From assembly GCF_003018255.1 (NCBI RefSeq), contig NZ_CP027441.1: a DNA stretch of 64,000 nucleotides. One strand, given 5' to 3'. Positions 9,001-12,000 of this stretch are shown piece by piece (position 1 is the stretch's first letter; each line of letters starts with the position of its first letter). Origin of the DNA: Escherichia coli. GTDB taxonomy: Bacteria > Pseudomonadota > Gammaproteobacteria > Enterobacterales > Enterobacteriaceae. Made by a program: the position numbers.

Positions 9001-12000
9001 GCTGGCGATGATTCAGTGCTGAGGGAATGGTGCTGTCTAGTGCGGTGGCGGGGCAGCCAGCGTCAGTTCAAGCTGACGCAACTCCCTGATGGCCAGTCGC
9101 TTCAGATGGTCATCGGAACAAAAATAGGCTTCATCCGGCGGCAGACGCTTCCTGAGATACTCTGCCATCTCATGAATCTGCTGGTCGGCAGGCAGTTTCT
9201 TCAGGCGATTAGCACGCTTGCGGGCTGCAGCTTTCGCCCGACGGTGTTTCAGCGCATCCTGGCTGCGCTGTAGATACCAGCGTTTTCTGGCCGCATGCAC
9301 GGAAATATCTTCGTCCTCACGCAGTACACCTTCCCGGATGAGCTGCTGGCGGATTTCACTTTCACGAAGCCGCTTCTGCTGCTGTTCGTGAAGTTTAACC
9401 ATGTCCACACCCAGCATCTGCCACCCTGCCGGTGTTATCCAGACATAACGCGGCAGACGCTGACGGGTTTCACGGTCCCACATCGTTTCTTCTGATACAC
9501 CCAGCACACCAAAACGCACCTGTTCGGCCAGCAGACGGGAAAGACGGGAGACTGTCACTTCAAGTTCCGGAATAACCTTCCCTTTGCTGTCTTTCGGGCT
9601 GATTTCTTTAGCCAGGCGGGAAACACTCATGCCCACGGTGTGTGTACCGGCATCACTGAAGCTGACCAGAACCGGCCAGATGGTATCGAGGAGGCATTGT
9701 TTTTCCGGCCGGAAAGCATATTTGCGACCGACGAACGTCCGTTTCTGCACGTAAAAAGGATGCCGCGACATACGCATACGCAGGCTCTGCTCGCCGGTCA
9801 CCGGGTCCTTTTTCACCAGACGGTTGTAGGCGTGCCCGAGCTGCCCGCTCAGCGCCTTATAGCGCGCAGGACGATACCAGGACGGATTTTCGCATTTGGG
9901 TTTAGTGGAGTGTTCACCACGACGGCGATTTGTGCGCTTCCTTTCCGGTTCAACCAGAAAAGAGATCGCCCTTCCCGTTTCATAGTCTTCCCAGAAACGG
10001 ATCTGCTCTTCGGGTGCTAACTGACTCCAGTGTACTGCGTTATATGGAGTATTCTTCAGACCTGCCACAAGCTGTCGCTTATGGCGGAGCGATTGTGCCG
10101 TGTATTTATACACTGCACAGGGTTGAATCTCTGGTACGGTTTCATATATACTTATCCCGTATTCGTGATGCCCCCATAATCTTTCTCCGGCCCGCCAAAG
10201 TCAGAGGAAAGTTTATGGGGGTTTCGCCTTTATGGTCTTCTGAAACTTTTTTCAGCCTTCCGGCACCGGCAAACTGCCGTCGTTTCTGCCATACGTCCTG
10301 AATGCCTTATGGCGCATCCTGCCGTTTTCTGACTTTCCGGACCGCGAGGATCCCAAAAGCCACTGAATAACGATCCGCAATATACCCCTTTTCCACCGCT
10401 TTGAAAAGCCGACACGATTTCTCTGATTTACCAGGCCTCTCATTAACCCCCTAAAAAACGTCGTTTTTTTGAACTATGTCAAAAAAATAGACAATTCCAC
10501 AAACGATCTTTTATGCTGTGTTTTTCATCATTTTTAGTAGAAGAGATCGCCTAAAATTTTTAAACGATCTAATCCTCCAGACACCGCACACAAATCAGCA
10601 TAATATGCTGCTTTATCAAATATAACGATCTATTCAACTACTTATCTTCGCTCTTGCCACAGATACATCCTTATGTAATATATTTTCCAGCCATTAATCC
10701 TGTTTGCAGGTTTTGTCGGTTTTCGCCCGCCTCGAAACCGTCCACAAGGCTTACAAGAGTGCGTAAATCATGTGCCTGTCAGAACTGCAGGCCGGGCTGA
10801 ACGAGGGTCAGCCGCTGTTTCCGACACATGCTTTATGTATTCGCCGTTCACAACAACATCGAAGCCCCTCTGCGGGGATCGATTTTCGCGGAGCGTTCCG
10901 GATTTTGAATATCAGTGAATTACATCAACGCAACTGGTATCTGGCTCAGTACATCCCTGCCGGCAAAAACCGCGAACATCTCTTTTCCTGGCTTTCCGAA
11001 CAACACGTCCTTCCCTGGACACCCCTGATACTGAAAAAAGTCCGCCGCACGGATAAAGTCTGCGGTTACCGTCGACATATACACGCCGTGTTTCCCGGTT
11101 ACTTTTTCCTGAAAGCAGACCCCGAACGCCACAGCTTCACTCACCTTCGCCGTCACAGTGCCTTTCTGGACTTCGTGAAAATGGCCGGTGAAATCAAAAC
11201 CGTCAGGGAGGATATCGTTCAGTCTTTGATGAAAGTGTACCCAGATCCTGCGCTCAATCCGGCAGCCAGGGAGGAGCTGGATGCTGCCTCCACCCTCTGG
11301 CTGACAAAAGCGCGTTACCAGTACCTCCTCCGGCTTGATGCACAGCCTCTGCCGGAGTCGAGGATCGCCCTGCTCCTGCACCTGGTATCTGATGACGGAG
11401 CGTTGACATGAAAATTGCTGTCTTAATTTGACGACTTTTCCCGGCCTTTATGGCCGGGATTTTTTTCCCTTCTGTTTCCACAATGCCCGGCACCGGTGAC
11501 ACCTTACGGTGTACGGAGAGCGGCTGTCGGGCATTTTTTCAGGACGCCTTTATGACAATTCTATCCCAGGAAAACCCTGTCATTCTGTTACTGGAGAATA
11601 TGCTCGAAGCACTCTCCACCGCCCCGGACAACATAAACAACGAACGGCGTCGCCGGCGTTACCTGCTGAACTGGCTTGACACTGCCCGTCAGATGCGCGA
11701 GTTCAGAGGAATGGCTGAAGAGTTCACTACCCTGCGAAAACTGCTGGCCACCAGTTCAGACATACCGGTAGCAAACACCCTGAAATCACTGCTGGAAAGT
11801 GGCAATAACGCAGCATTATACGACCTGTACCGCTTCCGCTCGGCTCTTGCCGCGTGCAGAAGTCTGGGATGGCAGATTGGCACGTGCGCATGGAACGACC
11901 AGCTGCTGAGTGAGACACTTTCCCGTGCGCAAACAGGTAAACGTCATATCCTGCAGCTGAACAGTACCAGAGACACCTTTTCCACCACGGGCAGAATGCT

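What the first reader, a model, noticed from the sequence alone, without database searches (positions are those of the whole stretch)
10770..11466. NusG/RfaH-like paralog followed by its own terminator; no ops-like site seen upstream of pil
The protein has an NGN-like N-terminal pattern resembling RfaH, which would fit a processivity factor for the long pil/tra operons downstream. I scanned the pil leader (15150–15756) for an RfaH ops-like GGCGGTAG motif and found none, so the recruitment site is unidentified. The annotated N-terminus extends about 45 residues beyond where NGN domains normally begin, suggesting a later start (TTG at 10905).
Basis: partly seen in the sequence, partly recalled or inferred. 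Interest (0 to 1): 0.4.

Follow-up and report, generated by a model that had tools for sequence, protein, structure and literature searches.

The report
TraB antiterminator with structured leader RNA
This gene is the plasmid's known TraB transfer activator, a relative of the transcription factor RfaH; its annotated start is 45 codons too early, and those codons lie in a conserved folded leader RNA that probably holds the factor's missing loading site.

Summary
The window is an E. coli STEC plasmid (I-complex transfer region). ORF 10770-11411 is the homolog of IncI1 R64 TraB, a known NusG/RfaH-like positive regulator of pil/tra genes, followed by TraC.

- **Family:** Profile, profile-profile and fold comparisons place it with RfaH and plasmid PrfaH. 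It has an NGN domain plus an RfaH-type helical C-terminal domain, and no KOW profile match.
- **Start codon:** The true start is almost certainly TTG 10905 (168 aa). Every diverged homolog starts there with ATG or GTG, and in-frame stops lie upstream in other lineages. ATG 10770 sits inside a covariation-supported RNA helix.
- **Leader:** The roughly 215-nt traB leader (about 10688-10904) is conserved and structured, and has no Rfam match. It ends in hairpin 10858-10883 plus TCGCGGAGCGTT (10886-10897), which reads like ops minus T6. This sits where PrfaH's ops-like site lies.
- **Terminator:** The intrinsic terminator after traB is conserved in 18 of 18 lineages.
- **No classic ops:** None was found in the pil leader.

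The most likely mechanism is that TraB loads on RNA polymerase in its own leader and carries it through the terminators into traC-pil-tra. This step is inferred, not shown.

The protein is already known; the leader RNA appears undescribed. A 5' leader hairpin loop resembles the replicon's Inc antisense RNA loop, which remains unexplained.

The parts
10654..10681 (+). Promoter-like site for traB (-35 TTGCCA 10654-10659, 16-nt spacer, -10 TAATAT 10676-10681); predicted transcript start near 10688
   Evidence: Consensus scan. -10-like hexamers (TATGAT, TAATAT, TATAGT) lie 10-35 nt upstream of the first leader hairpin in other lineages (alignments). Predicted only, not mapped.
10717..10740 (+). 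Leader hairpin hp1: CGGTTT / loop tcgcccgcctcg / AAACCG. The stem covaries between lineages. The loop core CGCC(A) resembles the plasmid's Inc antisense RNA loop.
   Evidence: Sequence; alignments; comparison with Inc loops.
10757..10842 (+). Long-range leader helix P2 (10757-10778 pairs with 10821-10842). It encloses the conserved CTGTCAGAACTGCAG (10776-10790) and a variable hairpin (10795-10813). The annotated ATG 10770 lies inside this helix, paired to 10827-10829.
   Evidence: RNAalifold: 18 pairs, 13 with compensatory changes. Pair counts: 90.8% of cells paired against 27-45% when the partner is slid, and 0 of 500 shuffles reach the observed values. The same helix appears in the single-sequence fold.
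10858..10883 (+). Leader hairpin hp3: ATCGA-ag-CCCC / tctgc / GGGG-a-TCGAT. Its 3' arm is the near-invariant GGATC motif (GATC at 10877-10880). It lies at -47 to -22 from the start codon, the position where PrfaH's ops-like hairpin lies.
   Evidence: Folds of 23 lineages. Cognate 5'/3' arms pair better than non-cognate arms, -13.1 against -9.3 kcal/mol, 0 of 20000 permutations. PrfaH's site is at -42 to -25 (PMC11880322).
10886..10897 (+). Candidate ops-like element TCGCGGAGCGTT. It contains the mini-hairpin GC-GGA-GC at 10888-10894 and overlaps a GGAG placed 11 nt from the start codon.
   Evidence: Conserved as GCG(N)AGC in nearly all lineages, while its spacing to the start codon varies from 4 to 13 nt. 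It matches ops GGCGGTAGCGTG apart from the missing T6. The Y. ruckeri type, GGCGAGAGCATG, is 12 nt long like ops. It occurs once in the window. The ops hairpin architecture is from PMC5995543.
10905..11411 (+). traB coding sequence as re-called here: TTG start, 168 aa, RfaH-like (NGN domain plus helical C-terminal domain)
   Evidence: Homolog starts align exactly with this codon. Across lineages the codon is TTG, GTG or ATG. In-frame stops lie 11-40 codons upstream in homologs. Family and fold evidence.
11439..11466 (+). Intrinsic terminator T1 after traB (stem-loop 11439-11459, U-run 11460-11466)
   Evidence: A terminator occupies this position in 18 of 18 diverged loci, with different stem sequences.
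11484..11539 (+). Second terminator-like long hairpin T2 (11484-11533) with a U6 run (11534-11539), 12 nt before the traC start
   Evidence: Fold z-score -4.1. Detected only in the window, L103 and L104.
11552..12217 (+). traC, the conserved partner gene of traB ('transfer protein C'); function unknown
   Evidence: Annotations. A 12-lineage alignment shows 34-44% identity. AF2 model has pLDDT 87 with no informative structural match. Weak DUF2913 hits in 2 of 12 members.

Best explanation
The gene is traB of an I-complex (IncI-gamma/K-type) conjugative plasmid. TraB is an RfaH-like specialised NusG paralog translated from TTG 10905 (168 aa), not from ATG 10770.

The proposed mechanism runs as follows. 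Transcription starts near 10688 and first produces a roughly 215-nt conserved, folded leader. TraB is recruited to the elongating RNA polymerase at the 3' end of that leader, at hairpin hp3 and the ops-like GCGGAGC element (10858-10897). This parallels RfaH loading at ops and PrfaH loading at its own 5'UTR hairpin. The modified polymerase then reads through the conserved terminator T1 (and T2 in this plasmid) and later terminators into traC, pil and tra. TraB would therefore act as a positive-feedback processivity switch for the roughly 40-kb transfer region.

**Shown here:** the identity and fold class of the protein, the start codon, the conservation and covariation of the leader, and the conservation of the terminator.

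**Taken from the literature on homologs:** TraB is required for pil/tra expression and for conjugation.

**Inferred:** the loading site, and terminator read-through as the mode of action.
For: **Identity**
- The window is 100% identical to NZ_CP027372.1, with the gene order repA-traB-traC-pil-tra.
- TraB is 65% identical to IncI1 TraB.

**Fold class**
- Pfam NGN scores above its gathering threshold, and 29 of 29 relatives hit it.
- The invariant FPGYFF motif aligns with RfaH FPNYLF.
- hhalign against RfaH gives 95.9% probability over 150 columns, including the C-terminal domain.
- The AF2 model (pLDDT 86.5) shows an NGN domain plus a helical hairpin.
- It best matches autoinhibited RfaH 5OND (E 1e-9, TM 0.79) and PrfaH 9IK0. 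The best PDB sequence hit is also 9IK0.

**Start codon**
- ATG 10770 lies inside helix P2.

**Leader**
- The leader is conserved in 21-23 lineages whose proteins are only 45-65% identical.
- P2 covariation is documented and hp3 covariation.
- G-U pairs make the fold specific to the + strand.
- The leader occurs once in the window.

**Terminators**
- T1 is conserved in 18 of 18 lineages.
- Further + strand terminators lie at T2 and at 14831-14851.

**Precedent and genetics**
- PrfaH's ops-like hairpin lies at -42 to -25 of its own ATG (PMC11880322).
- Deleting traB in pESI lowers pilV/S/T transcripts about 4-fold and abolishes conjugation (PMC5013300).
- traBC are required in the IncB/O/K/Z plasmid pMS7163B (PMC10286972).
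Against: - No experiment shows TraB binding to RNA polymerase, to the leader, or suppressing any terminator.
- The RfaH residues that read ops (H20, R23, Q24, R73; PMC5995543) are not conserved in TraB.
- hp3 loop sequences differ between lineages, and the GCGNAGC element overlaps a Shine-Dalgarno-like GGAG. Its conservation could therefore serve translation.
- DNA-fold energies of the mini-hairpins are no better than shuffled sequence.
- TraC is also required in R64 and has no recognisable fold, so the mechanism may need a partner.
- traC or the pil genes may have their own promoters, which a consensus scan would miss.
- The traB promoter and transcript start are predictions only.
Confidence: 0.6

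Rival explanations
1. The conserved leader is mainly a post-transcriptional control element for traB, governing translation, mRNA stability or RNA-RNA pairing. An example would be hp1 kissing the rep mRNA loop that the Inc antisense RNA targets. On this reading the leader is not the TraB loading site, and TraB is recruited elsewhere or without a specific site.
For: - P2 spans about 85 nt and uses G-U pairs, so it must form in RNA and cannot form within a transcription bubble.
- In several lineages the MFE folds pair the SD-like GGAG, and in some the start codon, into local hairpins, e.g. L006/L015 and L007/L012.
- The window combines a weak TTG start with a GGAG 11 nt upstream.
- The hp1 loop core equals the Inc RNA loop core in 12 of 12 lineages. 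This includes rare variants in three sister-lineage pairs (L008/L018, L105/L106, L103/L104). The permutation test gives p = 0.003.
Against: - This is not exclusive of the main explanation, since RNA structure and a loading site can coexist in one leader.
- In window-like plasmids hp1 is constant while the Inc loop varies.
- The apparent complementarity between the GCGGAGCG element and the rep mRNA is not conserved.
- No antisense promoter or partner RNA was identified.
Confidence: 0.25
2. TraB, together with TraC, activates transcription initiation at transfer promoters like a conventional activator. The terminator after traB merely insulates traB from traC.
For: - R64 genetics, as cited in the papers read, describes TraB and TraC only as positive regulators.
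- Both genes are required.
- A strong terminator separates them.
Against: - The NGN fold, the RNA-polymerase clamp-helix motif FPGYFF and the RfaH-type C-terminal domain point to an elongation factor.
- Neither protein shows a DNA-binding domain.
- The closest studied relative, PrfaH, works through an ops-like site downstream of the promoter.
Confidence: 0.12
3. The annotated 213-aa protein starting at ATG 10770 is the real product, carrying a 45-residue N-terminal extension.
For: - The frame is open from 10770, and PGAP calls it that way.
- The ORF stays intact in 44 window-like loci and in a variant 85% identical over the 168-aa query (P0004).
Against: - Homologs have in-frame stops 11-40 codons upstream of the shared start.
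- The aligned triplet is ATA in several of the 21 lineages, and its A and T are paired in helix P2 in all 21.
- Variants in the extension show no third-position bias (4:3:2).
- The codon at 10905 is always TTG, GTG or ATG.
- NCBI also holds the 168-aa form (P0001).
Confidence: 0.03

Closest known systems
TraB of IncI1 plasmid R64 (and pESI, pMS7163B traB)
   Same: - It is the ortholog: 65% identity, same length class (168 vs 177 aa), and the same gene order rep-(traA)-traB-terminator-traC-pil.
- Homologs are required for pil/tra expression and for conjugation.
   Different: - This plasmid lacks traA and the C4/isrK-like RNA region found upstream in IncI1.
- It uses a TTG start and has a second terminator-like hairpin before traC.
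- Its RefSeq start is 45 codons too long.
PrfaH / ActX of IncX plasmids (PDB 9IK0)
   Same: - It is a plasmid-encoded RfaH-like activator at the head of the transfer operon.
- It is the best PDB sequence hit (E 1.1e-7) and a close fold match.
- PrfaH is recruited by a non-template-strand hairpin at -42 to -25 of its own start codon. hp3 lies at -47 to -22 here.
   Different: - Sequence similarity is confined to the NGN domain.
- The leader here is much longer and folded as RNA.
- An intrinsic terminator follows the gene.
- A second required gene, traC, is present.
- The TraB site has not been tested.
E. coli RfaH with the ops element
   Same: - Both share an NGN domain plus a helical-hairpin C-terminal domain, as in autoinhibited RfaH.
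- The candidate site GCGGAGCGT resembles ops GCGGTAGCGT.
   Different: - TraB fails the RfaH equivalog cut-offs (38.5 bits against 124 and 144.5).
- The ops-reading residues and the HTTT motif are not conserved.
- The C-terminal domain lacks the KOW glycines and the last roughly 10 residues.
- The gene is linked to its target rather than standing alone.
- No true ops lies in the + strand leaders.
LoaP and UpxY (operon-linked NusG paralogs)
   Same: They are encoded next to the operon they activate, use recognition elements in a 5' leader, and read through terminators within the operon (own knowledge, plus abstracts listed).
   Different: - Sequence similarity is very weak (LoaP model 22 bits against a cut-off of 125).
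- LoaP recognises an RNA hairpin. Whether TraB reads RNA or DNA is unknown.

Membership tests
NusG/Spt5 superfamily | NGN domain (Pfam PF02357) scoring above the gathering threshold | tested here: met
   23.4-24.2 bits against a cut-off of 22.2. 29 of 29 relatives match.
NusG/Spt5 superfamily | Hydrophobic FPGY-type motif that binds the RNA polymerase clamp helices | tested here: met
   F63, P64, Y66, F67 and F68 are invariant in 29 sequences and align with RfaH 51-FPNYLF-56. Binding itself was not tested.
NusG/Spt5 superfamily | C-terminal KOW domain | tested here: not met
   No Pfam KOW match in 29 of 29 members. The C-terminal domain aligns with the RfaH C-terminal domain up to residue 152 but lacks its glycines. 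AF2 predicts helices only.
RfaH (NCBIfam TIGR01955 / NF006534 equivalog) | Score above the equivalog cut-off | tested here: not met
   38.5 bits against cut-offs of 144.5 and 124.
RfaH (NCBIfam TIGR01955 / NF006534 equivalog) | ops element GGCGGTAGnnTG in the leaders of target operons | tested here: not met
   The only exact match is antisense, inside traF (29911-29922, minus strand). None lies in the traB or pil leaders, and matches with up to 1 mismatch occur at chance frequency.
RfaH (NCBIfam TIGR01955 / NF006534 equivalog) | Helical-hairpin C-terminal domain packed on the NGN domain (autoinhibited state) that refolds to a beta-barrel | tested here: inconclusive
   The AF2 model has a helical hairpin at residues 135-162 and superposes on autoinhibited RfaH. 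Refolding cannot be tested here.
Plasmid RfaH-like transfer activators (PrfaH/ActX type) | Encoded at the head of the conjugative transfer gene array on a plasmid | tested here: met
   Gene maps.
Plasmid RfaH-like transfer activators (PrfaH/ActX type) | ops-like hairpin in the gene's own 5' untranslated region that is needed for activation | tested here: inconclusive
   A conserved, covarying hairpin plus an ops-like motif sits at -47 to -8. Function was not tested.
Plasmid RfaH-like transfer activators (PrfaH/ActX type) | Required for conjugation | not testable with these tools
   Shown for homologs only (PMC5013300, PMC10286972, PMC11880322).
I-complex TraB (R64 type) | Orthology by sequence and by the synteny rep-traB-traC-pil | tested here: met
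   65% identity over 97% of the length. Synteny holds in more than 10 lineages.
LoaP (NCBIfam NF033641) | Score above the family cut-off | tested here: not met
   22 bits against a cut-off of 125.

The most novel reading that the evidence does not exclude
The traB leader would be an undescribed cis-regulatory RNA that couples plasmid replication control to the transfer switch. Its 5' hairpin hp1 carries a loop that copies the plasmid's own Inc antisense RNA loop, so it can kiss stem-loop I of the rep mRNA. Its 3' end loads the RfaH-like TraB onto RNA polymerase. In a fresh transconjugant Inc RNA is scarce and the rep mRNA loop is free. The two divergent transcripts could then interact and set TraB output. 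That would give a molecular basis for the long-known transient burst of transfer of I-complex plasmids in newly infected cells.
Probability: 0.15. Interest if true: 0.75.

Novelty: already known. Interest (0 to 1): 0.38.

Why it matters
TraB-type regulators control transfer of I-complex plasmids (IncI1, IncB/O/K/Z). These plasmids spread ESBL genes and, as here, STEC virulence genes.

- **Annotation:** Correcting the start codon fixes a RefSeq protein (WP_000335846.1) that is propagated across hundreds of plasmid records.
- **Experiments:** Locating a conserved leader, a candidate loading site and a conserved terminator turns 'TraB is a positive regulator' into a set of direct experiments.
- **Comparative value:** It adds a second plasmid system beside PrfaH for asking how RfaH-like factors evolve new recognition sites.
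- **Fold switching:** It also allows a test of whether a C-terminal domain without KOW glycines still switches fold.

Tried and rejected
1. **Classic ops.** The only exact match is antisense in traF, and near matches occur at chance level. It was rejected as the TraB site.
2. **A second copy of the leader or ops-like motif elsewhere** (pil leader, tra leaders). nhmmer and pattern searches found none. The 2-mismatch hit TGACGGAGCGTT at 11393-11404 is not significant.
3. **Known RNA families in the leader.** Rfam gave no match at E up to 1 in the window, or at E up to 0.1 in 8 related loci.
4. **Pairing between the traB GCGGAGCG and the rep mRNA CGCUCCGC** (10084-10091). It is present only with the R64-type rep leader and not in other replicons, so it was rejected as coincidence.
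5. **An internal pseudoknot between the hp1 loop and the SD-proximal motif.** Only 4 nt are complementary and there is no covariation (inspection). Rejected.
6. **CsrA-type GGA sites.** GGA is not conserved in the mini-hairpin loop (GAA and GAGA occur in other lineages). Rejected.
7. **A conserved leader peptide starting at 10770.** The triplet is ATA in many lineages and is paired. Rejected.
9. **Genome and metagenome scans.** They returned mostly near-identical loci. Diversity came from plasmid hits and from contig look-ups.
10. **Kim et al. 1993** (R64 traABCD) is not held in the library.
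Full report
**What the window is.** The 1.9 kb around the finding is 100% identical to E. coli plasmid NZ_CP027372.1 and about 99.7% identical to pO113-type STEC plasmids. These are typed IncFIB + IncI-gamma/K1 with an MPF_I transfer system. Window coordinates equal record coordinates 100986-164985.

The gene order on the + strand is as follows:
- the finding's ORF (10770-11411), then 'transfer protein C' (11552-12217);
- a yqiJ-like gene and a flotillin gene;
- pilI through pilV, then traF through traY, then excA.

The replication gene repA lies divergently at 9037-10068. 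Its PK-repZ leader pseudoknot and CopA-like Inc antisense RNA lie at 10081-10230.

**Checking the observation.**
- The ORF is present.
- Pfam NGN (PF02357) matches residues 55-153 at E 8.6e-5, just above the gathering score.
- The NCBIfam RfaH equivalog models match residues 54-207 at E 1e-9 but far below their cut-offs.
- The terminator is a clean 8-bp G+C-rich stem (11439-11459) followed by seven T.
- No ops-like match with up to two mismatches lies in 15150-15756.
- The NGN domain begins about 45-55 residues into the annotated protein.

All points of the observation are confirmed.

**Identity.** A tblastn search finds the protein in 2413 plasmid records. The window type accounts for the 95-100% matches and IncI1 plasmids for the roughly 65% matches. 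Yersinia, Yokenella, Enterobacter, Salmonella and other plasmids match at 45-58%. In all of them the gene lies between the replicon (sometimes with a LuxR-like traA) and traC-pil. This is TraB of the I-complex plasmids.

The literature held here says the following about TraB:
- R64 TraB is required for transfer and is a PrfaH homolog (PMC11880322).
- pESI TraB resembles NusG. Its deletion lowers pilV, pilS and pilT transcripts about 4-fold and abolishes conjugation (PMC5013300).
- traBC are required for conjugation of the IncB/O/K/Z plasmid pMS7163B (PMC10286972).

**What kind of NusG paralog it is.**
- All 29 family members hit NGN and none hits KOW.
- The polymerase-binding FPGYFF motif is invariant.
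- A profile-profile comparison with E. coli RfaH gives 95.9% probability over 150 columns. The alignment runs through the C-terminal domain to RfaH residue 152 (TraB ...PESRIALLLHLV against RfaH ...GEARSMLLLNLI).
- AlphaFold2 with the family alignment gives pLDDT 86.5. It shows an NGN fold plus helices at 102-111, 119-129, 135-146 and 150-162.
- Foldseek places the model closest to autoinhibited RfaH (5OND, E 1e-9, 156 aligned columns) and to the IncX3 PrfaH crystal structure (9IK0). 9IK0 is also the best PDB sequence hit.

TraB fails the RfaH equivalog cut-offs. It lacks the RfaH residues that read ops (H20, R23, Q24, R73; PMC5995543) and lacks the KOW glycines. It is a distinct RfaH-like subfamily, not RfaH itself.

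**The start codon.**
- In five diverged plasmid records the annotated start (ATG or GTG) aligns exactly with TTG 10905, giving M/V/L-N/D-I-E....
- The same holds in genome, metagenome and contig loci.
- In homologs the frame upstream is closed by stop codons 11-40 codons before the shared start.
- Among 44 window-like loci the codon is TTG in 43 and GTG in one. In other lineages it is ATG or GTG.
- Nine variant sites inside the 45-codon 'extension' show no third-position bias.
- NCBI also holds a 168-aa version (P0001).

The true product is almost certainly 168 aa, translated from 10905.

**What the 'extra codons' really are.** The DNA upstream of the start is conserved over about 230 nt, between loci whose proteins are only 45-65% identical. 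RNAalifold on 21 lineages finds a long-range helix. In the window, 10757-10778 pairs with 10821-10842.

The pair counts are strong:
- 90.8% of cells are paired, against 27-45% when the partner is slid by 1-3 columns.
- 13 of 18 pairs carry compensatory changes.
- None of 500 shuffles reaches the observed values.
- Frequent G-U pairs make the fold specific to the traB-sense strand, so this is RNA.
- The A and T of 'ATG 10770' are invariant because they pair with 10828-10829. The third base is A in many lineages.

The helix encloses the conserved CTGTCAGAACTGCAG (10776-10790) and a variable hairpin that nonetheless always pairs (10795-10813).

Upstream lies hairpin hp1 (10717-10740), a short distance after a -10-like box.

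Downstream lies hairpin hp3 (10858-10883). Its 3' arm is the near-invariant GGATC(R)(R)TT and its 5' arm covaries. Examples are AUCGA/UCGAU here, CAAAAUCG/CGGUUUUG in IncI1 and GAAUU/AAUUC in Yokenella. Cognate arms pair on average 3.8 kcal/mol better than non-cognate arms, with 0 of 20000 permutations reaching that difference.

Rfam has no family for any of this. The leader occurs once in the window.

**A candidate recruitment site.** Directly after hp3 comes TCGCGGAGCGTT (10886-10897).
- Its core, GCG(N)AGC, is kept in nearly all lineages even though its distance to the start codon varies from 4 to 13 nt. That variation argues against a purely Shine-Dalgarno role.
- It reads like ops (GGCGGTAGCGTG) without T6. 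The Yersinia/Erwinia type, GGCGAGAGCATG, has the full 12-nt ops length.
- In ops, a C3:G8 pair closes a G4-A7 loop that RfaH reads. Here GC...GC closes GGA, GAA or GAGA.
- PrfaH, the closest studied relative, is recruited by a non-template-strand hairpin at -42 to -25 of its own ATG. hp3 occupies -47 to -22.

Either hp3, the mini-hairpin, or both together are the best candidates for the 'unidentified recruitment site'. This is inference. DNA-fold energies are weak, as they are for ops itself. The sequences could equally act in RNA.

**The terminator.** A G+C-rich hairpin with a U-run follows the traB stop codon in 18 of 18 diverged loci. The stem sequences differ between loci. This window also has a second long hairpin with U6 (11484-11539), ending 12 nt before traC. 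A further terminator-like site follows the flotillin gene (14831-14851). No promoter-like site was found between T1 and traC.

A conserved terminator placed between an RfaH-like gene and its co-required partner is what a read-through switch would look like. It does not prove one.

**Mechanism.** The most likely mechanism (confidence about 0.6) is as follows. TraB loads on RNA polymerase in its own leader. It then suppresses termination and polarity through T1/T2 and beyond, giving positive feedback on traC-pil-tra.

The rivals are:
- the leader acts mainly post-transcriptionally;
- TraB and TraC activate transcription initiation;
- the 213-aa annotation is correct (rejected).

TraC is conserved (34-44% identity). 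Its AF2 model is confident but has no informative structural match, so its role stays open.

**An unexplained link to replication control.** The hp1 loop has a CGCC(A) core, the same sense and sequence as the apical loop of the plasmid's Inc/CopA-like antisense RNA. Both are therefore complementary to the rep mRNA loop UUGGCG.
- In 12 lineages the base before GCC is the same in both elements.
- This includes rare variants in three sister-lineage pairs: L008/L018 with CCGCC to CGGCC, L105/L106 with CCGCC to CGGCC, and L103/L104 with UCGCC to AGCC.
- The window has GCCCGCC in both elements.
- A permutation test on shared substrings gives p = 0.003.

Against this, hp1 is constant among window-like plasmids while the Inc loop varies, so only CCGCC is shared there. 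Block recombination of the adjacent replicon could also inflate the signal. I record this as suggestive only.

**Novelty and score.** The protein, its NusG/RfaH likeness and its role as a transfer activator are already known. In the sources I could search, the following appear not to be described:
- the mis-called start in RefSeq;
- the covariation-supported leader RNA;
- the position of a candidate loading site;
- the universal terminator;
- the Inc-like loop of hp1.

Interest is moderate-low for the finding as written, and higher if the leader proves to couple replication control with the transfer switch.

Noticed in passing
10717-10740 compared with 10144-10229: The loop of leader hairpin hp1 (ucGCCCGCCucg) shares a 7-mer with the plasmid's own Inc/CopA-like antisense RNA loop (ggCCCGCCaaag). 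In 12 lineages the loop cores agree, including rare CGGCC, AGCC and GUCGCC variants. Both are complementary to the rep mRNA loop.
   Followed up: partly
10505-10630: Four GATC sites fall within about 125 bp, three of them as AACGATCT, between the rep and traB promoters. Clusters of 4-7 GATC lie in the same place in L006, L017 and L103-L107. A further near-invariant GATC sits in hp3 (10877-10880). Dam/SeqA-sensitive control is possible.
   Followed up: partly
29911-29922 (minus strand): An exact E. coli ops sequence, GGCGGTAGCCTG, lies antisense inside traF. About 0.1 exact matches are expected by chance in the window, and no minus-strand operon is evident.
   Followed up: no
11484-11539: A second long terminator-like hairpin with a U6 run lies immediately before the traC ribosome-binding site. 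It was detected only in this lineage, L103 and L104.
   Followed up: partly
L005:1493-1719, L008:1499-1696, L109:1494-1688: IncI1 and some other lineages carry Rfam C4 antisense RNA, isrK and c4-a1b1 matches just upstream of traA. In IncI1 (L005) they lie between repA and traA, the same interval as the 'Hft' region of pESBL (PMC4288162). This module and traA are absent from the window.
   Followed up: no
11552-12217: TraC, co-required with TraB in R64, gives a confident AF2 model (pLDDT 87). The model has an N-terminal helical bundle and a C-terminal alpha/beta domain, with no informative PDB match and only weak DUF2913 similarity.
   Followed up: partly
12484-14825: A yqiJ-like OB-fold membrane protein and a flotillin-family gene sit between traC and pilI. 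They are followed by a terminator-like hairpin at 14831-14851. IncI1 has different genes at this position.
   Followed up: no
11393-11404: TGACGGAGCGTT, a 2-mismatch copy of the leader's ops-like motif, lies at the 3' end of traB, 35 nt before terminator T1. It is not statistically significant.
   Followed up: partly
15149-15756: About 600 nt between pilI and the pilL-like gene carry no annotated gene. No ops-like site and no copy of the traB leader was found there.
   Followed up: partly
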